DNA from: Mytilus trossulus
Lineage: Eukaryota
Reading direction: 5' to 3'
Length of the DNA stretch: 64,000 nt
Assembly: GCF_036588685.1 (NCBI RefSeq)
Contig: NC_086376.1
Span: 11,160,001 to 11,224,000 of the forward strand
The notes beneath the pieces were generated by a model. That model was given only the letters and a program-made list of their open reading frames with translations. It searched no databases and was not told the DNA's origin. Both the position numbers and the translations under genes were made by a program. Every line of letters begins with the position of its first letter. Position 1 is the first letter of the stretch. Shown here piece by piece: positions 10,801 through 64,000 of the stretch.

Positions 10801-11774
10801 CCTTTTACTTTTGTCTTGGTTTTAATCTAAAGTTAAATCTGTAAAAATTGACGTTTCAAATAAACTCATCGTAGATACTGGTACCAGGATAAACATTTTG
10901 TATTTTGTTTCGTTCATACAAAAGACTCACTAGTGACGCTTAAATAAAAAAAGTTAAAAAGGCCTAATAATGTACGAAGTTAAAGAGCCTTGAGAATCAA
11001 AATTCCTAATACTTTTGCCAAATATATTCGTGATGTCTTAAGTCGTTTATTGATTGGTAAAAAACAAATTGATAAAGAGCCGTAATTTTGTCAGAATTAC
11101 AAAATTAAATGATACTGGTTTAAACATAAATTCAACACAAACTGACCCTACCTCATAATTGAACTATTATGTTTATAAATTGAATAAATCTAAGAAATTC
11201 TTAATATACACAAACGATTCCAGCCACACTATATTAATTATTTTAATATTTTAGAATACCAGATGATATATGTCTAGGAACATTAGAACAAAAACACGTA
11301 GAAACAATGAAGGAGGACTGGGAATCTACACGATACAGGGAAGGTTTAGAGGGATATTTCTCTGGTGTTGTACAAAACTTTGACAGTAGTTGTGTAACTG
11401 ATAAAGAAGGGAATCTCTTAGCCTATATATGTATGCAATATAATGGCGCCATGGCTATGTTGTATATAAGACCAGAATACAGACAGTGTGGATATTTTAA
11501 TATACTTCTTAGTGACCTTACTCGCAAACGCCTCGCAAAAACAGAAGTGGCGTATGCATTCATTCCTGTTCAAGATACGCAACTCATAAAACTAGCTCGG
11601 GAATTTGGATTTGAATGGGTGCCAGAAGGAAATATGACTTGGATTAGATACAATCCTCCAGCTCAACCAAACCGTCTTTCAAATGTTACCAAATCCGTAG
11701 AAGCCAAATCTAGCAACTTGGAGGATTGTTTGAATCATTTTAAAATCAACGCCATTCCTCTAACTACTTTGTGA
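1831..11774 (+). CDS. Glycine N-acyltransferase-like (GLYATL-type GNAT) protein, 5 coding exons, 317 aa
   Basis: Exons 1831-1911 (MIYQILNENEVVELEKELKKTLPGTAK), 5748-5861 (IYYVIRSFVNGNLQGYEVLVDNWPSWSCIILRPHSEKQ), 9068-9182 (VPRYFSHTYMCHSKS...PGVINWEEPVTFT), 10091-10214, 11255-11774. All introns GT..AG with consistent phases (0,0,1,2); total 954 nt. LVDxWP, INW and the C-terminal MAMLYIRPEYRQCGY..FGF match the GLYAT N-terminal domain plus GNAT acetyl-CoA motif A as I recall them. Confidence 0.88.
6654..7950. repeat. Intronic minisatellite, 23 units of 57/55 bp
   Basis: Unit CACCAACCTTATAGAAACAGGGGAAGTGACAATGTTTTCT(CT)GTTTGTCTCATCCTC. Units start at 6654, 6711 ... 7896: 16 of 57 bp and 7 of 55 bp. 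Lies in intron 2 of the GLYATL-like gene. Confidence 0.97.
10355..10438 (-). mobile_element. SINE 3' fragment (V-domain/bivalve SINE-like) with (CAAT)n tail
   Basis: Minus strand reads GCACTCCGGCTTCCGTCACCTATAAAAACTGACCGCCACGAAATAG...GAAAGTGGCGTTGAATCAATCAATCAAT. It resembles the GGTACTCCGGTTTCCTCC V-SINE core plus a tetranucleotide tail (recalled consensus, not searched). Confidence 0.5.
10860..11022 (-). mobile_element. Degenerate retrozyme (hammerhead repeat) copy in GLYATL-like intron 4
   Basis: Aligns by eye with 19345-19505 (AAACTCATC.TAGATAC..., CAAAAGACTCA..AGTGACGCT, AAAAGTTAAAAAGGCC.AATAA.GTACGAAGTT). Ribozyme core is mutated. Confidence 0.75.
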
Positions 11775-15956: not shown

Positions 15957-17481
15957 ATGAGAACCGCCATTGTTTTCGTTGTTTGCTTAATTGGTAAGTG
16001 CAATTAACTTACATGTGACCTGTTCTGTTAAGGAACAGGAATGAATTCCGACTTCAGGCCAGATACACATATTCTTATGAATTCTATTGGACATGTTTTA
16101 TTGCCAACATTAAGTATTCGGAAAATAATGTGGTGGAGACTTTCGCCATTTCTGTTACAAGAAATATGATATTTTGAGTTTAATTTTCCAAGGTATCAGT
16201 TATTTACGTACATATATTATTGGTTATAAGAAGATGTGATATAAGTGCCAATGAGACAACTCTCCATCACAGTCACAATTTGTAAAAGTAAACCATTTGC
16301 CATGATTAATACTAAGCATTGCATACAGCTGGGCGCCTTGTATTGTACATGCTAACCTAGAATGTGTTGTCCAAGATCCGTAATCTGTAGTCAATAATGA
16401 TACTCTTTCACACTAAGTAATGAAGACACTATTGTGCATTTGGAACGGATATAATTAATGTTATGATAATACATAGACACTTTGCATCGGCAAACTGATT
16501 CGAAATTGTGACCGTAAATCTGTACAATTTCCAATGATTTTTTTTGATTTTTTTCATATATTTTATTAAGTTGTTGCACTCATTATTGTATAACTTTGAA
16601 CTTTGATTACAAAAAAAAAAGACATTGAACTCTTAAAATTCACCGAAGTAAACACCGCGTACATTTTGTATATTAGAAAATGGTAATGGGATAAATTACA
16701 CCGTTTATTTAAGTTTTCTTTTATATCATATTCCATGTTTATATTACTTGAACCGGGAACATAATTGCGTCCTTCCATTTTATATTCATAGTACAATATA
16801 TTTCTAACTCTTACAATTTATATTTTTTAATGAAAGAAGAGCACTCCAAGATTTTTTTTATTAAATTGTGTTTTACAGCATATGTTACCGCAGAGACATG
16901 TTCAGGCAACAATAACTTGGACACACAGTGCTCCCATCTCACTTGTGATCAGGGATGGCATTTGGCCTGTAATAGTGGACAATGTACTTGTGTTCAAAAC
17001 ACCGCAAACGGTAAGTTTGGAAAACTTGTTTTAGAAAAAATAATTCAATTATAATACATGTAAATTTTATTATTATGTTTCCTGGCTTGGAATATATGTA
17101 ATTTCACGTTTTCATCGAATAAAGTCTTGTCTGTTTAAAAACGTGAAACAGCAGTCCACAAATTTCTACTTAAACAACTGTTGAGCATCACGAGTCGAAC
17201 TACACACCTGGTTTTAACTATGACGCCCGACAGGGTAAACAATATCTGCTTTACCAGGGGCACATGTAATAAAAACAACAACAAACGCGACACAACGTTT
17301 ACAAAATTTGGGTTAGTGAGAATTGCGGCCTTAGTCTTTGCATTTAAACCTTATAGTTTACATATTTTAATAAATTGCAGCTTGTACTACTAAAGCAGAG
17401 TGTGATGCAGTTTCTAACTGGGATTGTCCAATGAACCGTCGCCATTGCATTGATGGTACATGCAGGTGCACCAGATTCTAG
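15957..17481 (+). CDS. cvSI-2-like (MEROPS I84) secreted 12-Cys serine protease inhibitor-like peptide, gene A, 89 aa
   Basis: Exons 15957-15993, 16879-17010, 17381-17481 (GT-AG, phase 1/1, 270 nt): MRTAIVFVVCLIAYVTA-ETCSGNNNLDTQCSHLTCDQGWHLACNSGQCTCVQNTANACTTKAECDAVSNWDCPMNRRHCIDGTCRCTRF*. Signal peptide, 12 mature Cys; GQCTC and HC.DG.CRC motifs match oyster cvSI-2 as recalled. AATAAA at 17569. Confidence 0.88.
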
Positions 17482-18560: not shown

Positions 18561-19344
18561 ACTCACTATCAATCACAGTCTTCGTTAGACCTTTATAAAT
18601 CATATTAGTCGTCTTATACGTTTCCCTCAGTTTAAGTTTGTAACCGGATTTGTTTTTTCTCTATCGATTTATGAATTTTGAACAGCAGTAAACTACTGTT
18701 ACCTTTATTTATTTGTAATGTTAACGATTGTATACTATTCCCCATTGTGAAATTTTCACTACATTTTGATTCGCAGGGCTGGTGATGTATGCATGTCAAG
18801 AGAAGCTTACCAATGGTCATTTTAATTATTCATGTCATTCTTATTTGCTTATGTACTTTGTCTTTAGAGTTTCTATATGGCTTTTTTTTTGTGGAAATAG
18901 TTATTTGTCTTATATTAATTAAGATCATAACACAAAATTGACTGCTGCCCTATTTTTGACAATTTTACCTCATATGTTTGTTATGCTCACGCACTGTTGT
19001 CAATATAATAGGAATGTTATGCGACTGTCATACACGTGAGAGGTTAAGCTAGCTGTAGAAACAGGTTTAATCCACCAATATCTACACAAGGAAATGTCCG
19101 TACCCAGTCAGAAATTATGGAATAAGTATTTTTCTGTATACGTTTAATGAGTTTGAGCTACTGATTGTACCATTTGATAAGTTTTTTTTTAATTTGTTAA
19201 ATAAGTATTACCAATCATCAATCTATTTTTCTAGAAAATATCCCTGTTAACAGTGTGCCAAAGCTACAACCATGTACACCATCAAAAGGATAAGATATCG
19301 GAGACACGAACACAGTTATTAAAAAAAGAAAACATTTTTTTTTA

Positions 19345-19795
19345 ACTCATAATAGATACCAGGACTAAATTTAGTATACGTCAGACGCGCGTTTCGTCTA
19401 CAAAAGACTCATCAGTGACGCTCGAATCGAAAAAGTTAAAAAGGCCAAATAAAGTACGAAGTTGAAGAGCATTGAGGACCAAAATTCCTAAAAGTTTTGC
19501 CAAATACAGCTAAGGTAATCTATGCCTGAGGTAGAAAAGCCCTAGTATTTCAAAAAATTTAAAAATTTGTAAACAGTAAATTTATAAATATAACCATATC
19601 AATGACAATTCATGTCAGCACAAAAAGTGTTGACTACTGGGCTTGTGTTACCCTCGCGGAAATAAATCTCCACCCGCAGTGGCATCGACCCAGTGTTTGT
19701 AAATAAACTCATTATAGATACCAGGACTAAATTTAGTATACGCCTGACGCGCGTTTCGTCTAGTATTTCAAAACATTAAAAAATGTGTACACAGT
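19345..19795 (-). mobile_element. Non-LTR retrozyme: one 362-nt monomer plus the start of a second, internally deleted unit
   Basis: Direct repeat AACTCAT.ATAGATACCAGGACTAAATTTAGTATACG..(A/T)GACGCGCGTTTCGTCTA at about 19345-19400 and 19706-19762. The cleavage-site GAC triplets at 19384 and 19746 are 362 nt apart. Intact hammerhead at 19379-19420. Confidence 0.82.
19379..19420 (-). ncRNA. Minimal type I hammerhead ribozyme, intact core
   Basis: Minus strand: CGUCA-CUGAUGA-GUC-UUUUGUA-GAC-GAAAC-GCGC-GUC^-UGACG. Stem I CGUCA/UGACG is perfect; core CUGAUGA and GAAA; stem II GUC/GAC; stem III region is the palindrome ACGCGCGU; GUC cleavage triplet. Confidence 0.88.
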
Positions 19796-20135
19796 GTAGA
19801 AGGATCTAGTTAAGGTTTGCTTTTGAATATTTTCACGTAATGGAATAAGAGACGATTGTACATGCATTGATTTTTACAAGCGAAAGGGAACGCGTGCTTT
19901 TCTTATATTCACCTTTTCATTGCTGATTCGAAGGTCTAGCGAAGAAATATAAATTATATTAACGTCAAATATTGATCTATGAGTTCTAACAGCTACTATA
20001 AAATCTATTTCAAAGCCAATCGTACATTCTAGAGGAATAAAAGAGAGGCAAACAAATTCAAAGGAACATACAAACTCAAAAATTAAAAAAAGATTGAAAA
20101 TAAAATCACAACGGAATGGCAGCCAACATATAAAT

Positions 20136-20340: not shown

Positions 20341-23330
20341 TCATTTACCCTTGTTGGAAATTATAAAAAGTAAGTCCAAGATATGAGGCAGAACTGAATT
20401 TAAAAAAAAAAGATGTGGTATTATTTCCGATGAGACAACTCTTTACAAGTGACCAAATGACACAGAAATTAACAACAATATGTCACCGTAACCTTTAACA
20501 ATGAGCAAAACCCATTACGCATAGTCAGAATTTGTTTGTTTTTACAGTGATTTAGAACTTTATTTTTTTGTTTTACAGTGATTAATATTCTAACACAACT
20601 TTGACTGCTGTTCTCTTATTTTTGACATTTTTACCTATTATGTCTGTTTGTTTTATTCACACATCGCTGTCCATATACTGTATTGTAGTGCGACTGTCAT
20701 AAAAACGAGAGGTGTAGCTACCTATAAAACCAGGTTTTAACCACCGTTTTCTACATGAGAAAATTACTGTAAAAAGTCAGGAATATGACAATTATTATTC
20801 ATCCGCTTGATGTGTTGGAGCATTTAATATTGACATTTGATTACGGATTTTAGTTTTGAATTTTCCTCGGAGCTCGGCATTTTTGTTTTTTTTCTTTTGT
20901 AGCCGTTATTCAAAGTTCGATGAACTTGACGAATGTATCATATTAACCTAAGTTTTAACATGTTCTTTTAGACTAAAATACATTAGTTGTACAACTGCTT
21001 TGTTTTTTGTTATTACAACGCTTACCCGTGCTATGTAAGGGTTTGTGCGTTCACAAACATGTTAGTCTCACAACATTGTTTATGTACATATACCTAGTCA
21101 GGAGCCTGCAATGTAATGGTAGCCATTGGTCATGTCTGTTTTATTTGTTTTTCTTAAATTGTTTCATGAAAAATGTGGCACTGAGTTTGTTTTCGTTTGA
21201 TTTGATTCACATTTCTAGTTTCGGGGCTGTTTAAAGCCGACTATATGGTATTAGTTTGACATATTGTTCAAGGATGTAAGGTTGCCTATAACTGCTTATA
21301 TCCACTTCATTTAAACTGCAATGGATACTTGTTCTTTGGCAATCATACCACATTACCTTATTTGTATATTGAATTGCAGTTCTATATTCATTAAAATATC
21401 GTAATATCTTGCTTATTTACAACCCTCAAAAACCGATGCTGCAAGGTTTGCAGATAACAAAGATCTTAGATAACTGCAATAGTAACCGTTGAGTTTATAT
21501 GGTTATTTTCTGTGTGAAGTACTTATATATAAATCTTTTGATTTATAAGTCCATATCAAAACATTTGCCATAGCCATTAGGTATATTCGTTGTTTTTGAA
21601 AAAAAGATAATTAATATGTATTTATCCAAAGTGTTCATTGACTCTCGTGAACTTTAATTGGAACTTGAAACTTCTATATTCGAGCATCATTGATAATTTT
21701 TAAAGACGAAACTCGTGTCTTGCATCAAATATATGTATTTGATAAGTTATGAAGGGGAAAGCGTCAATACGGTTTCCATTACTAGTAACAGAAGAGAGTT
21801 TTATCCGCTTTCTTTTAAGAGGTTGAGTAAGATACAACATCAGGTTAAACCCAGCATTTTCTTTGGAATATGCCTGTACCAAGTAAAAAATATGACAAAT
21901 GTTTGGTTGAAAAAGAATGCTTTTGTCAGTTTTTAAAATTACTTTTAAGTCTTGTATTTCTGTTATACTTTTGTATTTTCTTCATTTATTTTTTTCCAAA
22001 TTTAATAATCTAGTTTACAAACACAAACTTGTGATAATTTATAGGTCAATATATAACAGCACTTATAGTCAAGGAATAATTTTCAAAACTGGAATGAAAC
22101 CTTTTCTTTAAATCTCGTCCATTACTAAGTTAGAAGATATATTAAATGCACGACATTAAGAAAAAATTTGTGCCTACAACAGGATTTCAGCTGTCAAAGA
22201 AATCGTCTTTATCTAAAATCTAAAAAAAAGAAAGAAAAACATACTGTCTTTTTTTATATACCTTTCGTTTTGTTTCTCAACATACTTATATCGATTCGTT
22301 GTTTTTTACATTCGCATCGGCCTATTTCATTTTAAATCGCTTGGTTTTGTTTTCAAATTTTATGAACCTTACTTTATTTGATCGTGAAATTGTTTAGGTT
22401 TTAGCAATACAAAGCATACTACTAGAATGCCGAAGAATAAGGTTGTTTGTGATTGGGTTTTCGAACTTTACAACTACTTTCAAGCTATTTTAATATATAG
22501 GTACATATATTTTACTGTTCTTAATTTGTACTAGAAATTAAAGTACTACAGATTTCTGGTTACACTTTTACAGTTATGATTTTCAAACATGGAATATTGT
22601 GATCACTGTTGATATTATTTCTGTACCAACATTTTTAGTATAAATCCAATACTGCAATATACAGTAATCAAGATATTACAACAATTTTAAAGTAAAAAAT
22701 AGTACTAAATATTAAAGATAAATCTCCAGTACTACAGATTTTTAGTACAGAAATAGTACCTTTGCAAAAGTAAGGAGCTGTAATTTCGATGCAAATTGTT
22801 TAAAATTCATATGATCTGTCAGATAAATTATTATTCGTACTAGAACTAACAATATATTTGGTATACCTCTCGTCTAAACTGAAAATAATTATGTCAGCGA
22901 CATCAGAAAACATGATGCACTAGTGCAAAAAGTCAGGTATTCATAATTTAAAAAGAAAACGACCAAACCATGAAGTAAATCAATTCATAACCCTAATTCC
23001 TCTAACGAAACACCCCCCCCCCCCCCAAACTAACCAAACAGAGATATCACATGTCATTGTTTTGAAAACAAGAATTGACATTTGCCTTGTTACTGTTAAT
23101 TGTCAAGGTAAAGTAAAATACTTTTTTTGTTTATTTTGATTCGTGATTTATCTTATAATTATATGTACTGATGACGAGGGTCGTTCCGTAATTAATGTGA
23201 AGCAGTTACTATTATAGACAAACCGTGACATCTTAATCTATGTGAAGGCACGATACAGACTTCCAGTATTTCTTTTATAAAGATTAAAATCCTGAACTTT
23301 CACAAATACTTGTTTTATTACATAACAACA

Positions 23331-25691
23331 ATGAAGACTGCAATTGCTTTCCTAGCTGTCTGTATTTTGGGTGAGTAGCAAGTTTATATGTTGATATTTA
23401 ACGATGTAAAAAAATATTTTGTTTTTAAGTGTTGGAAAGATGGAGTTTCCTTCAAACAGACATAATAATATGGAAACAGTCTCATGCTAAGTTCGTTTCA
23501 GCATTCCTCGATAACTAAGCAGAACAAAATGTCAAATAGGAAAAGCTTTAGAGGTTTAACACTTCATTTAAATACTTCATTTCTCAACTACATAGGTTAG
23601 ACATTGAAATATGTTTCTTTGAAGTAGGTGTGGAAGATACCAAAAGGGACAAGCAAACTCGTAGATCAAAATCAAACTGACAACGACTAAAAAAGAAAAA
23701 GACAAACAGACAAGTAATAGTACACAAGGCACAACAAAGAAAACTCAACATTGAGCAACACGAACCCTACCATAAACTGGGGGTGATCTCAAGTGCTCCG
23801 GGAGGATTAGCAGATCCTGCTCCACATGAAAATGTCCATTGTTAATAATGTGGAATAAACTCGTTTTTTATGCATTCTTTATTTATTTCTTTTCTTCCTG
23901 TTTCATGTACTCGAACTAAGAACTGGCATCCTTTATTTCTTATAATTCTCATAACAAACCTTTGACAAAGACCAACCATTATATACATTTATTTAGTGTT
24001 ACTTGGCTAATCAGTTTATTTTGGTTTCAGTAATTTTTTTAAGTTTGTTTTTTCAATTCTATTGTTAACATTGTTTTAAATGAAACGATTATTTACAGCT
24101 TTAGTTACTGGAGAACCATGTACAGGTAACACAAACTTGGACACTCAGTGCTCTCATCTGAATTGTGAATCTGGATGGCATTTAGCCTGTAATAATGGCC
24201 AGTGTACTTGTCTTCAAAACATTTCAAACAGTAAGTTGTAACACATTTGTATAGTACTTTTGATAACTATTGATATGCTGTTTAGAGTTTTCTACCAAAT
24301 AAGTCTCAATATGGGTAAAATCGACTGGAAATGCACAAATCAGTCAGTAGAGAGACTGGATTATACTTAGATACATGTCTAGTAAGTTGTTTACTACAAT
24401 AATAACTAACAACAGTTCCTAATAATATTCTCCAAATCATTACTGTTTACATTTATTTGGCATTTTTAATTTTTGGGATTCGAGCGTCACTGATGAGTCT
24501 TTTGTAGACGAAATGCGCGTCTGGCGTATATACTAAATTTAGTCCTGGTATCTTTGATGAGTTTTTTTTTACAGAAAAATAATGGTAAACCCGTTTTTCA
24601 TCTCTTTTTTGGGGGGGAGGAAGGGTCTGAAGCAATATTATTAAAACACCTCATTTATTCAAATAATATAATTGTGTGATATCCCTATTTAGAAGGTTTA
24701 AAACAATAATCTGGAATAATAACCACTTTTCTGGATATAAATGTTATCAATGTTTATAATATGTTATCAAAGGTACCAGAATTGTTTTTTAATACGCCCG
24801 ACACGCGTACATACAAAAGACTCATTAGTGACGCTCAGATCAAAATAGTTTTAAAGGCAAACAGAGCATTGAGGACCCAAAATCTCCAAAAATTCTGCAA
24901 AGTACGTTTAAGGTTATATATGCTTGGGATAAGAAAATCCTTAGTTTTATCGAAAAATTCAAAAAAAAAATTGTTAACAGGAAATTTAGAAAAATAACCA
25001 TACAATTGATATTTCTTGTCAACTCCGAAGTGCTGACTACTAGGCTGGTTATACTCTCTATTCGCTTTTTGAAAAAAATGAGTGAGTTGAGAATAATAAG
25101 AATGAGGAAGTTAGGATTAAAATCTTTCAAAGAGTATTTAAGGTATAAAGGAATTTTGAAAGAAATACATGCGCTTGCTATTTTATTAAATATTTACCTT
25201 TAGGTGGTACCCAACACCTTAACAAAAATTAATTTGGCTCGTTTAATTTTCATGAAATTTTGACAAAGTATTTACTTTGACCCTTTCACAAAAGTATGAA
25301 AGTTTCAAAACTTTTGAACCAACCGTTTTATCAGAAAAATTATACTGGTTATATAGCAGTTTGACAAACAGTAATCTCCCTATAGTGTTAGGTACCACCT
25401 TACAACTTGTTTTATGTTTAATGCTCTTGGTTAGATTAGTATCCATATGTACGGTTAACTTTGTCATTTTACCAGTATAGATGTAGTTGTAAAGATAATT
25501 AACAATGATTTCACCTGCCTGAATGTTATGTTATACAGTGTCCGTCAGTAAACTTTTTTAATAGAAAATCAAATGTTTTATTTTTTATAGCTTGTACTAC
25601 TAAAGCAGAGTGTGATGCAGTATCTAACTGGAACTGTCAAATGAACCGTCGCCATTGCATTGATGGTACTTGTAGATGTAGCAGATTTTGA
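23331..25691 (+). CDS. cvSI-2-like (I84) secreted 12-Cys peptide, gene B, 90 aa
   Basis: Exons 23331-23370, 24099-24230, 25591-25691 (273 nt, phase 1/1): MKTAIAFLAVCILALVTG-EPCTGNTNLDTQCSHLNCESGWHLACNNGQCTCLQNISNTCTTKAECDAVSNWNCQMNRRHCIDGTCRCSRF*. Close paralogue of gene A. TTATAAA about 55 nt upstream of the ATG. Confidence 0.88.
24485..24526 (+). ncRNA. Type I hammerhead ribozyme (retrozyme fragment about 24452-24560), sense strand in gene B intron 2
   Basis: CGUCA-CUGAUGA-GUC-UUUUGUA-GAC-GAAAU-GCGC-GUC^-UGGCG. Core intact; one G-U wobble in stem I and one C>U change giving U-G in stem III. Confidence 0.8.
24765..25055 (-). mobile_element. Degenerate retrozyme-family copy (variant with ATCAAAGGTACCAG end), ribozyme core broken
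   Basis: CAAAAGACTCATTAGTGACGCTC, GAGCATTGAGGACCCAAAAT, GTGCTGACTACTAGGCTGGT are collinear with 19400-19650. CUGAUGA is mutated and GAAA is lost. Confidence 0.75.
25202..25400. mobile_element. Non-autonomous TIR element (Kolobok-like MITE) in gene B intron 2
   Basis: Ends AGGTGGTACCCAACAC / GTGTTAGGTACCACCT (16 bp, 1 mismatch) in T/A-rich flanks. A second, longer copy lies at 45990-46379. Superfamily is a guess from RR..YY termini; TSD is not clean. Confidence 0.7.
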
Positions 25692-27793
25692 TTTGATTAA
25701 ATTGTACACTCACAAAATTTACATTTTTTTATTCTGTGGATTTAAAGACCAAAGTTGTATCATTTGTATACGAATCTATCGAGCTTTGTTCATATATTTA
25801 ATTAACAAAATCTTTTTATTATTTAATCAAACTTAGAGAAAAAACAATAGCTGTGTTGAATATATGCTTAGGAGAGAAATTTGTTTTTGTTTGAATAATT
25901 TTAACTTTTCATTCTCAATAAATACCAAGAAAAACAACGTTTCGATATTATTTCATGTCAGGTTTAGACGTACCGATCACTGGGGTGGTGATAACATGTT
26001 AAGTCAACCAGCAATTGCATCGCTCAGTGATTTGACCTCATCAAGGATACAAGACTTATAAATTGTTACACCAAACAAGCTTTGCGTCAACATAAGTTTT
26101 ATCAGTCGCACTCGAATCCGAGAACAGCTGGAAGGCGAAATCGAGTATGAAAGAGAAGATATTAGCAGTTGGAACGAATGATATGAAAGTTTTATTAAGG
26201 CTAAATAAATTTAACAGATTTTCGAAATGAAAAATATTAATTGTATAACTTTTTTAATTTGTATTTTATCAATTGGAAGGTTTCGCTAACTATAGAACCA
26301 GGTTTAACCCACTATATTTATCGAGAAAATGTCTGTCCCAAGTCAGGAATACAGGAATATATGTGTTGCACTTGTTCTGTTGATTAATAGCAAACTTTTT
26401 GAGTAAGCCATTTGTGTCATACTTGTTTATGCTGTGTGAAGTTTACTGATTATGCTGTAGTTCAGCCTTAATGTTTGTAATTGATATTGGTAATGATTGG
26501 GGGTTTAAAATATTTAACTTTCGCTATAACGATTTGGTTGACCAATATTGAAAATCGGTGTGAACAGAATTTCGTAACGGTCAACCAACACATGATGGCA
26601 TCCACAACAGTTTTCAAAGGTATGATTTCAACTTCGTCTTGTAAGTCTTGATGTTAGTCAAGATATGAAGCCTTATGATTGTACAAAATAACAATATTGT
26701 GGTGTTCAATGAAACATTTCTGTTATTTCTATGAATCTATGAACTCGCGCGAGAAAAAAGTAATGTATCGGTTAAATAATGTCAGTGGCAAAGCACTGAT
26801 TACTAGGCAAGTAAATTACAGTTCATTTTAATTCAAAATGAGTTCAGTCTTTTAATAAATTCACTATATTTTCTATATTCATTTTAGACATTACAGTTCA
26901 AATTCGTTTTTATAGTATTTTGTAAATAAGATATATTGCTATCAGTACTTTTACAGTATATTACTCAAGACCTAATTAAGGCACAATCTGACATGCTAAA
27001 ATAGAAAAACTATTTTTTTAACCATCTCAACTGAAAGCAGTAAAGAATATTTTTGTATCTGCAAATGGTGCATTAGATTGACACTGTTCGTTTTTCTAAC
27101 ATTATTTGGTATCTGCATCATTTTTGGCGGACTTCTACTGAAATATTTGTTAAAATGAAAATGACTGTATTCTTATAATATACGATTGCAATCTGATGTT
27201 AAAACAAGTGAGAAACCGGGTATTGAAATCACATGTTGATCTTTACGTTGATAAAAAGGACTATTGCCCACTTACGTACAGGGCACATGACCAACAAATA
27301 TGTTGACGATATTAATATTACGTGTATTCCATGTTTTAATCACTTATAACGTTTTGTCAGTTTCTTACTGAATATTTTACTTTGTCTTCTTTTACTATCA
27401 TTACCAGCACTCATTGGCCAAAATATAATAAACTGAATATAACATGCAATTTATCATCTCTCAAAGTGTAGTTTTATTTTGCATACAAACACTTGTGAAT
27501 ATCGAACGAAACAATTGAAAGTTATTGAGACATATATTCATCAATTACCGAAGGACAATGGTGTAAGCAACTACAGATTAAAAAAATATATCCTATACAA
27601 TATATTAAGCAATAATAGGAGCCAGAATGACAAAATATTGACAATGAAAGAACAAAACCAAACTCAACCAATTTGGTGATAAATACTTCATTTGCAGGTC
27701 GTATAAGATCGTATAAGAATCTTACAACAAAGGAAAGACAAGTTCATTGTGGGATTATTGACGCATATCTTATGTCGTTAAACTAACTTCTTA

Positions 27794-28947
27794 GTTAACC
27801 CTTTCTGTCGATATGACGCCTTAGACAAGATGCAATGCCGAACTTTATCTTCTTACCCTTCTGGAGCACCTGAGAACACCCCTAGTTTTTGGTGGGGTTC
27901 GTGTTGTTTATTCTTTAGTTTTCTCATGTGTACTATTGTTTTTCTGTTTGTCTTTTTCATTTTTAGCCATGGCGTTGTCAGTTTGTTTTAGATTTATGAG
28001 TTTGACTGTCCCTTTGGTATCTTTCGTCCCTCTTTTATCTGGGGTATCATTTAATTCTGTTTCAACGGGATATATATGTGATCTTATGGGAAATCTTATG
28101 TTACCTAGAGATCGTTTAGCTAAATGTTGAACAAGACGCTTGAAAGTAAAATCATAACAATAATGAATTCAGAGGGAAAATTTAAAGCAGAAAGTCCCTA
28201 CTCAAATGGCAAAATCAAAAGCTCAAACACATGAAACGAGTGGATAACAACTGTCATATTCCTACCTTGGTACAGATATTTTCTTATGAAATAAATGTTG
28301 AATGTAACCTGGTTTTATAGCTAGCTAAACCTCTCACTTGTATAACAGTCTCATAACATTTCATTATGTTAACCCTTTCTGTCGATATGACGCCTTAGAC
28401 AAGATGCAATGCCGAACTTTATCTTCTTACCCTTCTGGAGCACCTGAGAACACCCCTAGTTTTTGGTGGGGTTCGTGTTGTTTATTCTTTAGTTTTCTCA
28501 TGTGTACTATTGTTTTTCTGTTTGTCTTTTTCATTTTTAGCCATGGCGTTGTCAGTTTGTTTTAGATTTATGAGTTTGACTGTCCCTTTGGTATCTTTCG
28601 TCCCTCTTTTATCTGGGGTATCATTTAATTCTGTTTCAACGGGATATATATGTGATCTTATGGGAAATCTTATGTTACCTAGAGATCGTTTAGCTAAATG
28701 TTGAACAAGACGCTTGAAAGTAAAATCATAACAATAATGAATTCAGAGGGAAAATTTAAAGCAGAAAGTCCCTACTCAAATGGCAAAATCAAAAGCTCAA
28801 ACACATGAAACGAGTGGATAACAACTGTCATATTCCTACCTTGGTACAGATATTTTCTTATGAAATAAATGTTGAATGTAACCTGGTTTTATAGCTAGCT
28901 AAACCTCTCACTTGTATAACAGTCTCATAACATTTCATTATGTTAAC
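27794..28947. repeat. 574-bp tandem duplication (27794-28367, 28368-28941) with GTTAAC junctions
   Basis: The two copies look identical by eye (identical ORFs at 27936 and 28510, offset 574). GTTAAC occurs at 27794, 28368 and 28942. Confidence 0.95.
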
Positions 28948-30393
28948 AACGACGAGTGAGCAAAAAAACATACATAATAGGTAAGCATGTTAAAAGGGGT
29001 ATAACAGTCAACATTGTGTAATAATCTTAGTCACTATAAAACAGACACATATGTACCAAAGAAGCACAAAAAGGTATATAGACAAAGCACATTAGCATAA
29101 ATGAAAAATATCACAAAATCAGTAAAAACAAAACATCCAAAAATTAATTTCAGCTATCTTCTTTTATTTTCATCCCATAAAATCTGATAAGTGTATGAGA
29201 AAGAGAAATAAAAAAAAAAGAAATATACACTTTAAATAAAGGGAACCATACTTGTGGCAACAAAGCACGGGTATGGAGCCGTTTGTGTCATATATGTGCA
29301 AATGTATGTATGCAATCAGTATTTTCCACAATTGTAATTGTTGGAGATACAACACATGTGTATACATAGCAACAACCTGCATCTATATGCTGTAGTACAT
29401 TACAAAAAGAAGAGCAAAGCTATCACACGTTTCCCCAAAATTTGGTTATAAGTAAAATTTCAATCCCTTGGCGTATTATCTTAACCGAAACAGTTAATAT
29501 ATATCATGAAGATACCAAACAAAAAACATATGTCTTTCGTCTACTAGTAATTGTTTTTTTAAAACTGCTTCAAATGTTTCGTGTAAAACAAATGTGTGTA
29601 AACATTACAAAAAATTTAAAAGCTGTTTCTGTAGTATAGAAAATGTTCATATAAACCCATGTTTAAGGCGAGATTAGTCTTCAGGTGTCTAGAAAAATTA
29701 CTTTCATTGGACAATAACTATCATAATTGAAGAATTCATGGGGCCATATTACGAAACTACAATCCTAACTGTGTATTGCTACCTTACTTATTCCTTAAAG
29801 TTGGAGACCTTTATGGAATATCAGTTTCACAGATGACAAAATGTACGTTATAATTATGCAAACTTCAAACCTGTCCTCCTTTCCCCAAATATGATCTCCC
29901 TAATTTGGAATTTTACTCATACGAGCAACACATATGGAGCACGATTTGCTTACCATACAGAAGTACATAAGAATATTCCAAGATTTCGGTAGTGTTCGTG
30001 ATGCACACTCTAAAGTTTTCAATGTTGTGAATTATTGTTTAAAATTGAGAATGGAAATGGGGAATGTATCAAAGAGACAACAACCCGACCATAGAAAAAA
30101 ACAACACCAGAATGTCACCAATAGGTCTTCAATGTAACGAGAAATTCCCGCACCGGAGGCGTCCTTCAGCTGGCCCTAAACAAATATATACTAGTTTGTC
30201 TGTATGCCTTTTTTTCCTTTCGTATCTTTTGTCTCTCTTTTAAACGGGCAATTTGTATGAGTGGACCCTTTTTATCATATCTTTTGGACTTATTCGTTCA
30301 ATTTTTGTCTAGTGAAGAGTAAAGAATATGTTTGTAAAAGGTATGAAGATAACATTTCACATTATCGTGCGGTAGGAAACTGTGTTTGCATAT

Positions 30394-30720
30394 AAACTCA
30401 TCATATATTCCAAGATGGAAAATTTGTATTTGTGCCAGACGCACGTTTTGTCTACAAAAGACTGAGCAGCGACGATCGAATAAAGAAAAGTTTAGGCCAA
30501 ATTAGCAGGTGCGTCCAACGCACTTGTTTTTTTACCATTATCAGGAACGCTCAATCATCAACATTTGAAAGAAGGTTTAAAAAACCAGAATCATTAGAAG
30601 CTATAAAAACAGACAAAACTTAAAAGCGCTGCCAAATTCCGCAGAATAAACTCATAGATGTCAGATCTTAAATTGTGTATGCCAGACGCCCGTTTACACA
30701 TGACTCATTAGAGATACTAC
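30394..30720 (-). mobile_element. Two degenerate retrozyme/hammerhead repeat fragments
   Basis: TAAACTCATCATA...GCCAGACGCACGTTTTGTCTACAAAAGACTGAGCAGCGACG (about 30394-30480) and AATAAACTCATAGAT...GCCAGACGCCCGTTT (about 30646-30715). Cores are mutated. Confidence 0.65.
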
Positions 30721-31560
30721 ACAAAAATAGATATCATCTTTGACTGAAGGAGGTGGAACCTCAGTTTTGAAATATTTTACAACGAGGGATTTAGGTATAT
30801 ATGTTTAAAATAATGTTTGCACTGAATCAAATACAATTAAGCTGATGACACTCTCATATTCTAATAGTCCACCAGCAGCGAAATCGATCGAGAACTAATA
30901 AATAAAATTAACGGTTTTACATTTTTTTTCTTCAAACTAACTTCTTGTACAGAGATTTCCACTCGACACAACTAAACTATCTGAACATGTCTCAGTATAC
31001 ATAATTGAAGCAGGGGAGTATAGAATGCTTGCCTTTTTGTGCCCTTTGAATACATATTGGAGTCGCATTTATCTTTAAATTTATCAAACTTGCTTTTCTT
31101 AATCTATACATGATTTGTTAATTGCATGATGAATTTATTGACAATTCAAGTTATTAAATCAGTTATGTGAAATGTGTAATCAAATGCGAACATCATATAT
31201 TACTTGTTACCATGTCATTTTATTTGACCCATATATTTATTTCTCTCCAAAGGGTGAAATTTTAAAAATATTTATTCGAAGTTAAGTCTAAATAGATGAT
31301 AATAACACATTCTGAAAATGACATTTTTAATTTTGAATACAATAAACTATTTATCACTTAACAATAAGCAATTTACTTATGAATCAATCACAGAATAATT
31401 TCTATAAATGTATCAACTTTCTACAAGCACTAAGAAATTCTAACTTAGGCATTATGTGAAATGTATGTGAAATTTATGTGAATTTTAAATGCGATTATTT
31501 AGATTTTAGTCTGTTTTATCTACAATTGCTAATACATTTTACCAATCGTTTGTCCAAAAT

Positions 31561-31690: not shown

Positions 31691-34600
31691 ATGAAGATTG
31701 TAATTGCTTTCCTAGTTGTCTGTACTTTGGGTAAGTGAAACCTTTGATTTACTGAATTTGGTTTTGATTGTCGTTTATCGTTTATTTAAAAAAGAAAAAA
31801 AATGTGGTATGATTGATAATTGGACAACTCTTCAAGAGAACAAATACCAAAGGAATTAATAACTATAGATCATTGCTTGTCCGTTTACATATATGTTAGA
31901 AAACATCGTTCGATACATAGTTGTGTCATCTTTTTGCAAGTATACGGAGAAAATGAACACATTATATTTGATTCCATCTCCAATTTTGATCCTTTTTCTA
32001 ATTGTAATACCAAATTTTAGTTCAATGCATTCCTTCATTTTGGCTTTATGTAATTTAAAAGTTTAGTTGTACATATACTATTAAGCAGTCAGTTTAGAAT
32101 CTTAAGGACTTAAGTATGTGAACATTGCAATTCAAATTTCAATTGTTTTGGTTTAGGAAAGGTATTTTGTGATATGGCAATATTTTTAGATACTCCAAAA
32201 AAATCAAGATTTTTTTCAAATTTAGTGTCACATATTAACCATAATATTTTGAAGGTTAATAAGCCAAAAATGTTAAAATCTTTCTCATTTTTTTAATTGC
32301 TATTCCAATTTATTCATTAAACCTTGTCAATGTGGTTGTTATTCTAGATAATGAGAATAAAGTTTCAGTAAAACCTAAAACCTTTTAGTATATCTTAATA
32401 ACATATGTATATATAATAAATATATGAAATAAATTTTTGAATGATTTAAATTTACAAAATGTTTATGATATTAGAATAAGCTGTTGGCGCGTTTCGTCTA
32501 CAAAAGACTCATCAGTGACGCTTGAAAAAAAAAGTTATAGTAAAAGGCGAAATATCAAACTAATTTTAAGTACTTCTATGTTTATGATTTCATTATCGAA
32601 CCAAATCGTAAATCTTATGCTTTTGGGATATGAATTAATGATTTTATTAACTTGATTTCGACAAGGTTTATTCTCCAGATTAATCGAAAGATAAAACATA
32701 AACAGAGACGACAATAGATTTATTCTTTATAATTGTACATGTAGGTTACATCAGCTGTGAAGATTGTCCTACTAATAATCCTGACCGGGAATGTGACCAC
32801 ATACATTGTGAAGATCATTGGCATAAGGCTTGTGTATCAAATACCTGCACCTGTCTACATAGTACTGACGGGGGACAAGGTATGGATGATCATCAAAATG
32901 ACGCACAAAATGATATCCTTTCATTAATATGATAAATACTAAATAATAATTGAGGACTTTTGTTTCACAAAATCAATCTGGAGTGGGTGTTACATGTCTT
33001 CCTCATGATCAGTTTGATGTTTAGGCATCTGGTATTTTAAAACACCAGTTATAATTCTTGTTGGGAGTGGGGTAGTATTTTTTTAAGCCAAATACTTTGT
33101 TTTGTTTTAAAAATACCAATAACAATGTATCAACTAACATACAGGAACAAGTTGAAATTTTAATTTAATGATTGTTTTATATTTATACTTTTTTAAGCAC
33201 AACACATTGTGTCTTCGCCCCTTCTAAAAAACTATTGTTTTAAAAGAATTTAGAATCAGATATTTTATTTTAAAAAAAGATATGCCCTAATTACATGTGA
33301 GTTTTTAACTAGAAAACCCTGGGTATAGATGCTAATTAGAAAAAAAACCCACAACTTATTGGAACTAAGGTAATTGTCTAAATCGGTTATGGGTGAGAGG
33401 TTTATGCGCACGTAAATAAAGGCAACAGTAGTATGCCGATGATCAAAACCCATAAATCGATAGAAAAAGAAAAAATCTGGGTCACAAACCAAAACCGAGG
33501 GAAACGCATTAAATATAAGAGAATGACGACACAACATTAAAATATAACACACACAGAAACGAACTAAGCATTACACAAAATCAGATGAGAATTAAAAATA
33601 TACTATCAAAACTAAATACATGAATTTGGGATAGAAAATTACTGTGACACGTCTTATAATAATGTGAATTCACACTCAAATATAAGAGGAAACAAACGAC
33701 ACAAAAGAAATACAACTCTAAAATGTAACACACAGAAACGAACTATAATATAACAATGACCTTATTCCTGACTTGGTACGGGACATTTTAAAGAAAAAAA
33801 AAGTGGGTTGAACCTGGTTTTGTGGCATGCCAAACCTCCCTCTTTTATGGCCATGTTTATTATAACATTAAAATGACAACACAACATTACAGGACTACAA
33901 TACAAATAAATAGGAGAACACAATTGACAAACACACACGAATAATAGCTAACAAAAGGCACCGAGTTTAAAATGTAATACACTAGAAGTGCGTTTTGTCC
34001 ACACAAGAATTACTAGAGACGCCCTGATACAAAAGCCAAAACAAGTAAAAAGTTCAACAGCATCGAGCATCGAGGACCAAAAGTTCAAAAAAGTTATGCC
34101 AGAAACGGCCATGGTTTACTGTAAGGTACCACCTGGATGACCCTTACACCATGCAGTGGATGTCGCACGTCATTAAACATGTGTCACAGTGGTTTGTGTT
34201 TATATGTTTTTATTTGGACGTCTGTTTTATTCTCATAGGAGAAGATAGGAGAAGATAGAAAATGATTCGTGTGGTCTGCAGTACTTTCAATTATATTTTG
34301 GTGGTTCCTATTGTCCTCTTTTATTTTTTAACTGTGTTTCGGATCAAATGTTATGCCTTTGATTTAGAAAAAACAGTTTATAGATATAAGGCTCATTATG
34401 GTTTTTTGCCCTTTGATGGTTTCGATTTTCCTCTTGCATTTTGTTGTTACACACATAAAGCACATGTTTATTCCTTCGAATATTAAAAGAACGACCATTT
34501 GGTTGTAGAGGTTTTTGAAGTGCATGGAAAATGTTGTAAATACATATCAGTGTTCACATAAACGTATATTTCTAGAAATAAAAAGATTGGAAAACAAACC

Positions 34601-38459: not shown

Positions 38460-38703
38460 TTCAGAACTTCGGTGTTGACATGAGTATCAATAGTATGGTC
38501 ATTTTAATAAAGTTTCTGTTGCAAAACTTTTTTTTTCGGAGGATTTCCTTATGGCAGGACTAGATAACCTTAACAACTTTTTTGGAATTTTGGGTCCTCA
38601 ATGCTCTTCAACTTGTTTGGCTATTTAACTATTTTGATCTGAGTCTTGTGAAGACGAAACCCGTGTCTTATAAATTATAATCCCGGTACCTTTGATAACT
38701 ATT
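38460..38703 (+). mobile_element. Degenerate retrozyme-family copy
   Basis: GGGTCCTCAATGCTCTTCAACTT...GAGTCTTGTGAAGACGAAACCCGTGTC...GGTACCTTTGATAACTATT is the reverse complement of the 24765-25055 variant. The CUGAUGA region is deleted. Confidence 0.7.
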
Positions 38704-40101
38704 CTTTACACAGACATAAGCCATGGTTGTAACAGGACAAACATCTGCTGCAGGACTTATTTACCAACGCGTTTCTGGAAAGAAAAAAGAGTTATTGGTG
38801 ACAATATTCGATGTTCAAGGCCCATTTATGAAAATGTCGGGATTAAAGCAGCTTCTTTTTTTAATGCAAAGTTTATATCAACAGATGAAGTCTGGTTAAA
38901 AATAAAAAAAGTAAAATTTTACAGAAGGTCGCATGCGACATTGTAAATGCACAATTGAAATATGGCACTTAAAACTGGACATTTTGTATATTCAAAATGT
39001 CCAAAAAATGTGAGAAAAATAAAATAACACATCCGTTATTCGATTTGTACGGATGTGAAGGTAAGCATATATATGTGTGCGAAGAAGGTACTCCTACTTT
39101 TATGATTCAGTAAAGATTCAAAGTTTAATTTATGAATCTTATAGACGACAACGATAAAGACGTCGCGCAAGATACTGGTGACAATTTGAAGGTGATTCGA
39201 GAAAAATCGGCGAAAAGGCTAACTGTCCGTTTAGGACGCAACAATTTGCAGAATCGCTAAATAATTTTCGTTACCCAATCTAATGGCAACATAATATCTG
39301 TTTTTCATGATATTTTTTTCACGAATAGGTTTCGATTTGAAGCGCGAAATTTTATGAAATAGGCAATTTTGACGTGTAATGCGTAACATTGAACATTGAG
39401 ATCTCCAAACATTTTTGAGAATGAAATATGGATTGAGTAGCCAAAGGTAGTTCTCATTTGGAAGGAATTTAGAACCATATGTAAAGTTTTGAATTACATA
39501 ATTTTACTTACATATATGACGTCATACATGTAGAAAAATGACGTCATAGCAACTTTTTGATCTTGTAATGGTGACAAATAATCTAGACTCCAACTGCAAA
39601 CTTTGAAGATCAAATTCATATACTGAAGGTAATTTTAAAAGGATATCATTTATATTTATAATTTATAAATTACAAACATTTCTGTTTAAATTGGTACCAA
39701 ACTTTTTGAGTTTACTTGTTTTAAAAAAAAAAAACTATTGAAAAAATTTAAAATCAGAAAAAATGTCCCGTATCATCTGAAATCCAAACAAATATTCCAT
39801 TTTGACGATTTCGGGATCTACGATGTATCGCGATTAAATCAGAAGAAAAATACTGATACAGATTTCAAAAATTACAACAAATACTGAACATGATAATATA
39901 AATACTGGCTGTTTTTATATTTTATCCTTTTCGCAAATAAAGTAAAGAAAAATCAGAAAAAATGTCCAATGAGACAAAAAACGTCGAAAAATAATGAAAC
40001 GTCATATTTCACACAGAGTCAATACGCAAAAGAAATTAAAAGAAGAACTTGTAAAGAATCGATCTTCAAACATGAAACGATATGGGCATGTTTTTGCCTT
40101 A

Positions 40102-40706: not shown

Positions 40707-41027
40707 TTAATGAAATAAAAATATTATTCTATAATTCGTAAAAGATGATTTGACTTTAGGAAGTTCTGAAACAATCTAAAAGAAGAGTTACCATATTAGA
40801 TAATTTTCGTAGACAAAACAAGAGGCACCAATCCCTTCAAACAACCGAAATGATCTCTGGTGTTTCAGGAGAATGATTAGTTCCAAAAAAATAAAACACG
40901 AGACAAAAAAGACTCATATTTAATTATTGAATGTATTTATAAACCAACAATCAATTAAAATAATCGGACTTAAAAAAATCAGACCAAAATTTTGTGTACA
41001 TTCAAATATAAATATGCTTTCAGAAAT

Positions 41028-63083: not shown

Positions 63084-64000
63084 CGAAATCTAAGAACCAT
63101 CAACGGTTTCATTACCGATGGTTTCACAAACCAAGTCGTCGTGTCTTAACTGTATTGTCATACATGTCCAGGGTGTAATTTTGTTTAAATTTACTGTTCA
63201 AACAGCTATCATATAGCTACTCCGTTATTGATTTGGCAAGTATTTTGTTTCGGTTCGAGTGCAACCAATGAGTTATAGATCTGGGAAAACCGGTTACAAT
63301 TTTATATTTTGAGTCCTCAATGCTCTTCAACCTTGTAATTTAATTGGCTTTTAAAACTGGTTGACGAAACGCGCATTTGGCATATACAGTTTTGACCCTG
63401 GTATATTTGATAAATTTTATTTTAATCCGGTTTTGGTGTGATCTTTCTTAGTTATAATAGAAATTTTACAAAATGTGTAATATTTTTTCATGCTTTTGTA
63501 GGAATTGCAGTCTTCTTTTGTTATCTTAATCAACTAACTATTCTTGCACCGTGTCTGGTCATACATCAACGCCGGATAGACAGCATGAAACATTCTTATA
63601 CATGTCACGTGACAAAACCTAGAAAACAGCTTAGAAAAGAAGGAAGATCATCGTGTTATGTTACATGTTGTTCAGGAGAAAAACCAGTCAGCCGTTCGGA
63701 GACGGAAAGTATTCTTGAAACCTACCCAAAACGTGTTGTTCAATTTTTAGTCCATAATAAGATTTCAAGATTAGTTATACTAGCTGTGTACGCAACATAT
63801 ATAACTTTTTCAATTCTAGGAGTGCAATCTATCAAGCAATCAACAAAATATTCCGAGCTAGCAATTGAAGGTTCCAATTATTACACAGCTAATGTTTGGG
63901 ACTATGATAATTATCCTCTAGAATTACCGTTCCAAATTGTGTTCACAGGACCTGTTAAATATGAAAAGATAGAGATACGAGAATCCATTGATGAAATAGT
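59995..64000 (+). CDS. Patched domain-containing protein (PTCHD3/PTR-like, sterol-sensing RND fold), 3' truncated by the window end
   Basis: Exons 59995-60997 (acceptor at 59977; MACMFFSRC...FGRYGRLIAKYPW + TM1, FEDLCAK...C loop, TM2-4 to MPFLIIG), 61566-61772 (GIGINDMFII...SGLAITVTSLTDVLTFFIG...IKNFCLYA), 63502->64000 (GIAVFFCYLNQLTILAPCL...). GT-AG introns, phase 1/1; classic patched/SSD motifs. Confidence 0.92.
61803..62512 (+). mobile_element. Degenerate Helentron-associated (pearl/MgE-like) element with internal 120-175-bp tandem units, in a PTCHD intron
   Basis: Recurring ACT.T.ACTT.AGT (61892, 62010, 62167, 62342) and CCG.TCT(A/C)AGA..TAT..CC.TT..AA.TTGGA motifs. The 5' TATGCCTCC...TAAGTATTACCCTTG and 3' AAGCGGGGCA resemble bivalve Helentron-derived ends (recalled). 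Confidence 0.5.
63250..63415 (+). mobile_element. Degenerate retrozyme-family fragment
   Basis: GTCCTCAATGCTCTTCAAC...GACGAAACGCGCATTTGGCATAT...CCTGGTATATTTGAT. Core incomplete. Confidence 0.6.

What the first reader, a model, noticed from the sequence alone, without database searches (positions are those of the whole stretch)
19345..19795. Retrozyme locus: 362-nt monomer with an intact minimal hammerhead ribozyme
Seen: a perfect 42-nt type I hammerhead on the - strand (19379-19420) with a palindromic stem III region (ACGCGCGU), and a second cleavage-site half exactly 362 nt away. The second unit has lost about 140 bp by a deletion joining CGTCTA to CTAGTATTTC (CTA microhomology), removing its CUGAUGA strand. 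Established: short type I hammerheads in tandem 300-400-nt units define non-LTR retrozymes, which make circRNAs and have been reported from Mytilus; palindromic stem III favours dimeric cleavage. Inference: this locus has one complete and one half ribozyme, so excision of the monomer would need the intact core (or trans-acting circRNA) to cleave the half site.
Basis: partly seen in the sequence, partly recalled or inferred. Interest (0 to 1): 0.75.

Follow-up and report, generated by a model that had tools for sequence, protein, structure and literature searches.

The report
Decayed mussel-type retrozyme copy with hammerhead
This is one broken copy of a very abundant mollusc repeat that carries an intact-looking hammerhead ribozyme motif; it is likely the retrozyme already described from mussels and probably cannot make its own RNA circle, but most copies of the family stop at the same point about 45 bases past the predicted cut site, which would fit copying by a Penelope-type retrotransposon.

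Summary
A 42-nt type I hammerhead lies at 19379-19420 (-) (Rfam Hammerhead_1, 33.3 bits, E 3.4e-6). A half-site sits 362 nt away, and a 144-nt deletion removes its CUGAUGA strand. Unit size, GC and two ribozyme subfamilies match the published Mytilus galloprovincialis non-LTR retrozyme (Cervera & de la Pena 2020). I could not compare it with the deposited clones or name the host species.

Three corrections: the ribozyme is canonical, not 'minimal'; the mussel ribozyme cleaves as a monomer in print; and the half-site has A at +1, so rescue by the intact core would carry an A.A mismatch beside the cut. The locus is probably a dead-end copy. The deletion junction recurs in other DNA runs, and RNA contigs carry family letters, not this copy's.

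Extra: 9 of 12 family copies in the window and 4 of 5 informative metagenome copies end 36-47 nt 3' of the cut site, with scattered 5' ends. That is a Penelope-like insertion signature, which I did not find described for retrozymes. The scan earlier reported retrozymes in sea-squirt DNA and truncated Penelope tails elsewhere, but no look-alike of this sequence.

The parts
19379..19420 (-). Intact-looking canonical type I hammerhead (5-bp stem I, 4-bp stem II, 2-bp stem III with palindromic loop); predicted cut 19384/19383
19344..19383 (-). 40-nt extension 3' of the cut site, i.e. the start of a next unit; the element's 3' end, about 5 nt short of the end point shared by most family copies; no target-site duplication seen
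19384..19745 (-). 362-nt cut-site-to-cut-site unit, 36.7% GC, non-coding (longest ATG ORF 37 aa, read as a circle); carries several letters rare in the family
19638..19694 (-). GC-rich predicted hairpin (+52 to +108 of the unit), just 3' of the shared end point and an unpaired AC-rich linker; conserved between subfamilies, covariation not significant
19741..19762 (-). Half ribozyme: 3' strand of stem II, GAAA, stem III, GUC, and stem I 3' strand with A at +1 (19745); no CUGAUGA strand
19760..19795 (-). 36-nt mid-unit fragment (equivalent to 19542-19577), joined to the half ribozyme across a 144-nt deletion with 2-3 nt microhomology; the element's truncated 5' end
10858..11027 (-). Decayed family copy, 5'-truncated, ends at +45
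21569..21737 (+). Very decayed family copy, ends near +36 (weak alignment)
24452..24568 (+). Family copy with near-intact hammerhead (one core change), ends at +45; in intron 2 of a small cysteine-rich gene
24761..25058 (-). Second-subfamily copy, about 300 nt, ends at +41; same intron
25863..26159 (-). Old copy that runs through the shared end point (exception)
30382..30937 (-). Degenerate cluster of family pieces, ends at +44 and +53
32487..32566 (-). Short copy ending just before the cut site (-3; exception)
33950..34121 (-). Decayed second-subfamily copy, ends at +41
38463..38702 (+). Second-subfamily copy, ends at +41 to +46
63113..63422 (+). Decayed copy, ends at +43

Best explanation
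The locus is a 5'-truncated, internally deleted copy (1.25 units) of a high-copy, non-coding mollusc repeat with a type I hammerhead motif; it is most likely the published mussel non-LTR retrozyme, likely inserted by Penelope-like retrotransposon enzymes, and probably now a dead end. Shown here: the anatomy, two subfamilies, tandem units elsewhere, a shared 3' end and scattered 5' ends. Published for the mussel family: transcription, self-cleavage, ligation to abundant 350-390-nt circles. Inferred: a Penelope-type reverse transcriptase, primed at nicked AT-rich DNA, started about 45 nt 3' of the cut site and copied back through the cut/ligation junction. It read one full unit and crossed the junction a second time, so its template was a circle or an uncleaved multimer. 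It then skipped 144 nt (or that DNA was deleted later) and stopped. Also inferred: a read-through transcript of the - strand could be cut once at 19384/19383, but the upstream site lacks its own core and would carry an A.A mismatch in trans, so no unit-length RNA or circle is expected.
For: Rfam match and intact pairs. The 362-nt unit, 36.7% GC and no ORF over 37 aa fit the ~350-390-bp, low-GC repeats of PMC7229834. Two loop-II variants at about equal depth (19403 A/T: 1,458,638 of 2,825,743 in X1) fit that paper's 'two ribozyme families'. Natural tandem of 355-nt units in L002. Holders include mollusc metagenomes, and X6 holds the unique flanks. 3' ends fall at +36 to +46 in 9 of 12 window copies and at +41 to +47 in 4 of 5 informative metagenome loci (P about 1.6e-9 under a uniform null after scanning all positions). 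With an independent query that has no edge at that point, 8 of 12 hits end at +28 to +44 while 5' ends range from +72 to +353. A PLE reverse transcriptase starts internally, 3' of its hammerhead, on uncleaved RNA (PMC11167929). Xenopus retrozymes are related to PLE pLTRs (10.64898/2026.07.22.740005). A.A at the upstream site. In RNA run X15 all laid depth at 19542, 19648 and 19675 carries the family letter, not this copy's.
Against: No sequence comparison with the deposited mussel circRNAs (MN642551-76) was possible, and the paper's supplement could not be read. No autonomous PLE sharing this sequence was found, but no genome was available to look in. Three of 12 window copies do not end at the shared point (+105 or further, +53, -3), and one counted copy has a weak alignment score of 29. 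The uniform null is crude. No TSD was seen. Nearest-neighbour folding prefers a misfold by 7.8 kcal/mol for this hammerhead against 5.2 for L004 and L006; the model ignores the catalytic core, so this is weak either way. Contigs drop rare variants, so X15 cannot prove this copy silent.
Confidence: 0.85

Rival explanations
1. One reading: the locus is a working source of a 362-nt circle. The intact core, or a circle acting in trans, cleaves the half-site through a double hammerhead on the palindromic stem III.
For: The palindrome is real (-13.3 kcal/mol duplex). The half-site keeps stem III, GUC and 4 of 5 stem I pairs; duplex -6.8 against -7.5 kcal/mol for the core's own strand. Dimeric cleavage is known for amphibian and PLE hammerheads (PMC7229834, PMC4209133).
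Against: A.A at the pair next to the cut. A mismatch at that position is reported to slow cleavage 500-fold or more (PMC3138052, passage). The core's own stem I is populated at 0.64-0.75 in the locus transcript model. RNA contigs lack this copy's letters at three diagnostic sites. By the two-complete-HHR criterion of the 2026 preprint the locus is not an active retrozyme.
Confidence: 0.07
2. The dispersed fragments, and ultimately this unit, are the 5'-truncated tail ends or a deletion derivative of an autonomous Penelope-like element copied from linear uncleaved transcripts. Circles would then be a by-product, not the transposition template.
For: A fixed 3' end with 5' truncation is the PLE pattern. 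PAc uses unprocessed RNA and does not need hammerhead cleavage in vitro (PMC11167929). Earlier scan notes read similar dispersed hammerhead copies in other genomes that way. Short copies here (under 170 nt) cannot be told from PLE ends.
Against: The focal copy and L002 wrap head-to-tail with a 355-362-nt period and no ORF. The longest dispersed copies follow the unit back to +72 to +102. The ribozyme is canonical, not the min-HHR typical of metazoan PLEs. This rival differs from the best reading only in template and origin and is partly compatible with it.
Confidence: 0.3
3. The rearranged second unit is an assembly artefact.
For: High-copy repeats are prone to misassembly; the window has a perfect 574-nt tandem duplication elsewhere.
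Against: Single-copy-depth contigs in three DNA runs from three studies run from the half-site across the deletion junction into unique flank: X5 19715-20100, X6 19729-20100, X1 19730-20100. X5 and X6 meet the 31-letter bridging rule; X1 is borderline.
Confidence: 0.02

Closest known systems
Mytilus galloprovincialis non-LTR retrozyme (Cervera & de la Pena 2020, PMC7229834; circRNA clones MN642551-MN642576)
   Same: Type I hammerhead in ~350-390-bp low-GC non-coding repeats; two similar ribozyme families; short 5-nt loop II.
   Different: This locus has only one whole ribozyme, a deleted upstream unit and a mismatch at the second site. Sequence identity to the clones was not testable. The paper counts about 5000 hammerheads; decayed fragments look far more numerous (12 copies, about 3.9% of this window).
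Penelope-like elements, e.g. Anolis Poseidon PAc (Frangieh et al. 2024, PMC11167929; Craig et al. 2021, PMC8557442)
   Same: Hammerhead near a fixed 3' end, partial-tandem structure, 5' truncation, and an end point 3' of the cut site next to AC-rich RNA.
   Different: No RT/GIY-YIG ORF; canonical rather than minimal hammerhead; one main end point at about +45 rather than two (PAc's stated site is 85-92 nt 3' of its cut, my subtraction from the paper's coordinates).
Vertebrate non-LTR retrozymes as PLE derivatives (Li, Clavereau & Pollet 2026, bioRxiv 10.64898/2026.07.22.740005)
   Same: Tandem and solo hammerhead repeats proposed to be mobilised by PLEs; many inactive solo copies.
   Different: That study has no mollusc and argues from pLTR homology and co-occurrence. 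The words tail, initiation, Mytilus, mussel and mollusc do not occur in its main text.

Membership tests
Metazoan non-LTR retrozyme | Canonical type I hammerhead | tested here: met
   Rfam RF00163 33.3 bits, E 3.4e-6, full model length, 0.7 bit under gathering; 11 of 11 pairs
Metazoan non-LTR retrozyme | Short head-to-tail repeat unit (150-450 bp) | tested here: met
   362-nt spacing; 355-nt tandem in L002
Metazoan non-LTR retrozyme | Low GC, non-coding, no LTRs | tested here: met
   36.7% GC, longest ATG ORF 37 aa; no long terminal repeats. PBS/PPT not searched separately.
Metazoan non-LTR retrozyme | Self-cleavage in vitro | not testable with these tools
   Published for a cloned mussel repeat (~0.1/min, PMC7229834), not for this copy
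Metazoan non-LTR retrozyme | Expressed as unit-length linear and circular RNA | tested here: inconclusive
   567 contigs of RNA run X15 lie on the element and none on the flanks, but contigs show neither strand nor circularity and DNA carry-over of so abundant a repeat is not excluded
Active retrozyme (criterion of Li et al. 2026) | Two consecutive units, each with a complete hammerhead | tested here: not met
   One whole core plus a half-site without CUGAUGA and with A at +1; filed as a decayed copy, not as an active element
M. galloprovincialis retrozyme family | Sequence similarity to MN642551-76 | not testable with these tools
   No nucleotide database holding them; supplement unreadable; four short motifs found in 0 papers
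M. galloprovincialis retrozyme family | Two similar ribozyme subfamilies, 350-390-bp unit | tested here: met
   19403 A/T about 50:50 in three DNA runs; two tail types in alignment A1; units of 362 and 355 nt
M. galloprovincialis retrozyme family | Host is Mytilus | tested here: inconclusive
   A mollusc-metagenome run holds the unique flanks; protein searches gave no species names. The genus is inferred from the paper's description and from my recall of this repeat.
Minimal hammerhead (min-HHR) of PLEs | No helix III / loop 3 beyond the conserved core | tested here: not met
   2-bp helix III with 4-nt palindromic loop present; definition from PMC4209133
Autonomous Penelope-like element | ORF with RT and GIY-YIG endonuclease | tested here: not met
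   No ORF of 90 aa or more within 19344-19795; longest ATG ORF in the unit 37 aa
PLE-type insertion signature | Fixed 3' end 3' of the hammerhead, variable 5' truncation | tested here: met
   9 of 12 and 4 of 5 copies; 8 of 12 hits with an edge-free query, 5' ends scattered
PLE-type insertion signature | Start in an AC-rich stem-loop; AT-rich target | tested here: inconclusive
   The end point lies just before an AC-rich, predicted unpaired linker at the foot of a hairpin. Flanks look AT-rich by eye in a 32%-GC window; not tested against background. Covariation not significant, 236 of 500 shuffles as high.

The most novel reading that the evidence does not exclude
Mussel retrozyme RNA carries a cis signal that makes a Penelope-type reverse transcriptase start at one fixed internal site about 45 nt 3' of the hammerhead cut, at an AC-rich linker in front of a conserved hairpin. 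Nearly every genomic copy therefore records synthesis across the ligation junction of a circle or an uncleaved multimer. This would be the missing physical link between animal retrozyme circles and their mobilising enzyme; the 2020 review says these repeats show no conserved motif pointing to one.
Probability: 0.5. Interest if true: 0.5.

Novelty: already known. Interest (0 to 1): 0.22.

Why it matters
The locus itself is ordinary: one decayed copy among very many of what is most likely a family already cloned, assayed and shown to make circles. The useful part is the family-wide fixed 3' end. If it holds genome-wide, it gives a direct, testable footprint of how animal retrozymes insert. It predicts the RT start site and the RNA element a mussel Penelope protein should bind, and it says the template must be uncleaved or circular. 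So far that question rests on co-occurrence and on pLTR homology in frogs.

Tried and rejected
No genome is held for this window, so there was no genome-wide copy count, end map or search for the autonomous partner. The Rfam gathering scan of the window gave 0 hits. My first core pattern had one N too many and found nothing (corrected). Motif scans of viral contigs and genome contigs gave 0 matches. MFE folding of the unit gave no excess stability (z 0.51, 71 of 100 shuffles as good), nor did the ribozyme region (z -0.32). The deletion ends do not sit at the base of one predicted hairpin in the circular fold, so 'RT jumped a hairpin' is not supported. No TSD: only scattered 5-6-mers are shared between 54-55-nt flanks. 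Covariation of the hairpin 3' of the end point: 88% of cells paired and 1 double change among 5 sequences, not above shuffles (one search used a mis-registered structure and is void). Host naming through a neighbouring exon failed: 16 hits, no species names. An empty-site allele was not seen, but only 15 of 708 joints were shown, so nothing follows. Contigs at the 3' junction reach only 28-29 letters into the element, under the 31-letter bridging rule. Summed depth (core about 1.7e5 times flank in X1) is not a copy number. Four of 8 metagenome loci did not support the end count: L005 and L008 hit contig ends and L002 runs on as a tandem (all three left out); L007 diverges at +9 and was counted as a miss.

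Full report
Observation. The - strand of 19420-19379 is a 42-nt type I hammerhead with a 5-bp stem I, CUGAUGA, a 4-bp stem II, GAAA, a 2-bp stem III closed by GCGC, and GUC at the predicted cut 19384/19383. All 11 pairs are standard. Rfam Hammerhead_1 aligns end to end at 33.3 bits, E 3.4e-6, just under the gathering score of 34, which is why the whole-window scan was empty. The core pattern occurs 3 times in the window against 0.26 expected. A 57-nt direct repeat at 362-nt spacing (54 of 57 identical) carries the second cut site 19746/19745. Beyond it, 19760-19795 copies 19542-19577 (32 of 36), which means a 144-nt deletion with CTA at the junction.

Anatomy in RNA sense. A 36-nt mid-unit fragment, the deletion, 17 nt of ribozyme 3' half, a full 362-nt unit ending in the intact core, and a 40-nt extension. 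The unit is 36.7% GC, with no ATG ORF over 37 aa and no excess folding stability (z 0.51). No TSD was seen. The element lies between two paralogous small cysteine-rich genes (exons 15957-17481 and 23331-about 25690) and is not in an intron of either.

The rearrangement is real. Of 22 listed runs, 20 hold part of the stretch, among them mollusc metagenomes. I laid 4 of them. Single-copy-depth contigs of X1, X5 and X6 (three studies) run from the half-site across the deletion junction into unique flank with 7, 4 and 7 other letters. X5 and X6 meet the bridging rule and X1 is borderline. X5's four differences are all listed in the flank (19911, 19914, 19978, 20049), so its copy shares the junction and the A at +1 (30 letters lie to the left of that base, one short of the rule). 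One of these runs could be the source of the window.

Family. nhmmer finds 15 hit segments in the window, which group into 12 copies including the focal one and cover about 2.5 kb or 3.9%. A metagenome scan gave 8 more loci, one of them (L002) a head-to-tail array with a 355-nt period, 304 of 352 positions identical to our unit. Tens of thousands of contigs per DNA run lie on the element, and position 19403 is A or T at about equal depth. Alignment A1 shows two tail types. Cervera & de la Pena 2020 (PMC7229834; I read parts 1-4 of 6, the whole main text up to the start of the references; supplement unreadable) describe in M. galloprovincialis about 5000 type I hammerheads in two similar families, within 350-390-bp repeats, self-cleaving at about 0.1/min and accumulating as circles. 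Size, GC and the two subfamilies agree. I could not align to their clones, and no tool named the host; 'mussel' is inferred from this match and from my recall of the repeat.

Corrections to the interpretation. 'Minimal' in this literature means no helix III; a 1-2-bp helix III with a palindromic loop is the canonical metazoan form (PMC4209133, passages). Most invertebrate motifs cleave as monomers (PMC7761336, passages and section 9). The palindrome is real and would allow a double hammerhead in which the intact core serves the half-site, but stem I would then be CG, GC, UG, CG, AA, with the mismatch next to the scissile bond. A review passage gives 500-fold or more loss for that position (PMC3138052, passages). 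This copy also has rare letters at many sites (about 99% of family depth differs at 19542, 19648 and 19675), and in RNA run X15 all laid depth at those three sites has the family letter. Contigs drop rare variants, the run may be another species, and DNA carry-over is possible, so this is only consistent with silence. The microhomology is weak evidence of mechanism, because its C is one of those rare letters. Internal skips are common in the family (joints; L008).

Shared 3' end. Aligned to natural references that run through the extension into the next unit, the 12 window copies end at +40, +45, +36, +45, +41, +105, +53, +44, -3, +41, +46 and +43 from the cut. That is 9 of 12 within 11 nt (P about 1.6e-9 for a uniform null scanned over 362 positions; 8 of 11 without the focal copy, 4e-8). 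Of 8 metagenome loci, 3 give no end (two contig ends, one tandem); of the other 5, four end at +41 to +47 and one at +9. These loci were chosen by the core motif, so their ends had to lie 3' of it. With L002 as an independent edge-free query, 8 of 12 hits end at +28 to +44 while 5' ends scatter from +72 to +353; two of the four other hits are inner pieces of copies that do end at the shared point. The sequence just past the end point is GC-rich and conserved between subfamilies, so loss of detectability does not explain the stop. The two subfamilies differ by about 3 nt in tail length, which accounts for part of the spread.

Mechanism. A fixed 3' end with variable 5' truncation is the mark of target-primed reverse transcription (established knowledge). 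The end lies 3' of the cut site, so the template cannot have been a self-cleaved linear monomer; it was a circle or an uncleaved multimer (inference). In the focal copy synthesis crossed the junction twice. Frangieh et al. 2024 (PMC11167929; parts 1-2 of 4 read, the whole results text) show that a Penelope-like protein nicks AT-rich DNA and starts internally in an AC-rich stem-loop 3' of its hammerhead, on unprocessed RNA, and that genomic copy ends fall on these start sites. Here the end point precedes an AC-rich linker predicted unpaired, at the foot of a hairpin at +52 to +108. Covariation in that hairpin is not significant with 5 sequences. Li et al. 2026 (bioRxiv 10.64898/2026.07.22.740005; parts 1-3 of 5 read, main text through discussion; supplements closed) link Xenopus retrozymes to PLE pLTRs. 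PLE mobilisation is thus the best-supported route, but no partner element was seen here.

What is in print. The family and the PLE hypothesis are published. A fixed 3' end for retrozyme copies I did not find in the papers read, and the search listings gave no title or abstract pointing to it (term look-ups). The library lacks most subscription journals, I read only the papers named, and unread supplements (notably Figs S4, S5 and S9 of PMC7229834) or repeat-database consensus entries may already show it. Craig et al. 2021 (PMC8557442) and PMC10886601 were seen as passages only. Earlier scan notes: no look-alike by sequence and none for this genome; retrozymes in sea-squirt DNA and truncated PLE tails in other animals. 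These are leads, not support.

Verdict. A real feature of an already known kind, very probably of an already described family, and probably an inactive copy. Interest 0.22, mostly for the shared end point, which deserves a genome-wide check.

Noticed in passing
window 15957-17481 (+) and 23331-about 25690 (+): Two paralogous three-exon genes for small (about 90 aa) proteins with a signal-peptide-like start and 12 cysteines. Pfam found nothing for exon 2, and Atlas hits were all under 0.8. They resemble bivalve cvSI-2-like serine protease inhibitors (recalled, not tested). Two retrozyme copies sit in intron 2 of the second gene.
   Followed up: partly
window 40974-43319 and 43784-44242 (+): A long ORF with transposase-like motifs (by eye), split by a ~540-bp insert with 69-bp inverted ends at 43261-43329 / 43734-43802. 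No Pfam hit; Atlas top hits are unnamed eukaryotic clusters (0.97), with DUF7869 clusters at 0.86-0.87.
   Followed up: partly
window 27794-28947: Perfect 574-nt tandem duplication, 100% identical: a recent duplication or an assembly artefact.
   Followed up: no
window 6654-7949: 23 copies of a 57-bp unit, 98% identical, open in several frames; probably a minisatellite.
   Followed up: no
window 11247-11774 (+); 59818-61849 (+): Exons of a GNAT / acyl-CoA:amino-acid N-acyltransferase-like gene and of a Patched-domain gene.
   Followed up: partly
window 40101-40707: About 600-bp element with 62-bp inverted ends that contain 26-nt G and C runs; MITE-like.
   Followed up: no
L004, L005, L007: In these marine-metagenome contigs the retrozyme piece abuts what looks by eye like bacterial coding DNA; possibly chimeric assemblies with mollusc DNA.
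   Followed up: no
window 30382-30937 (-): Degenerate cluster of family pieces with two 3' ends (+44 and +53), possibly an old partial tandem.
   Followed up: partly
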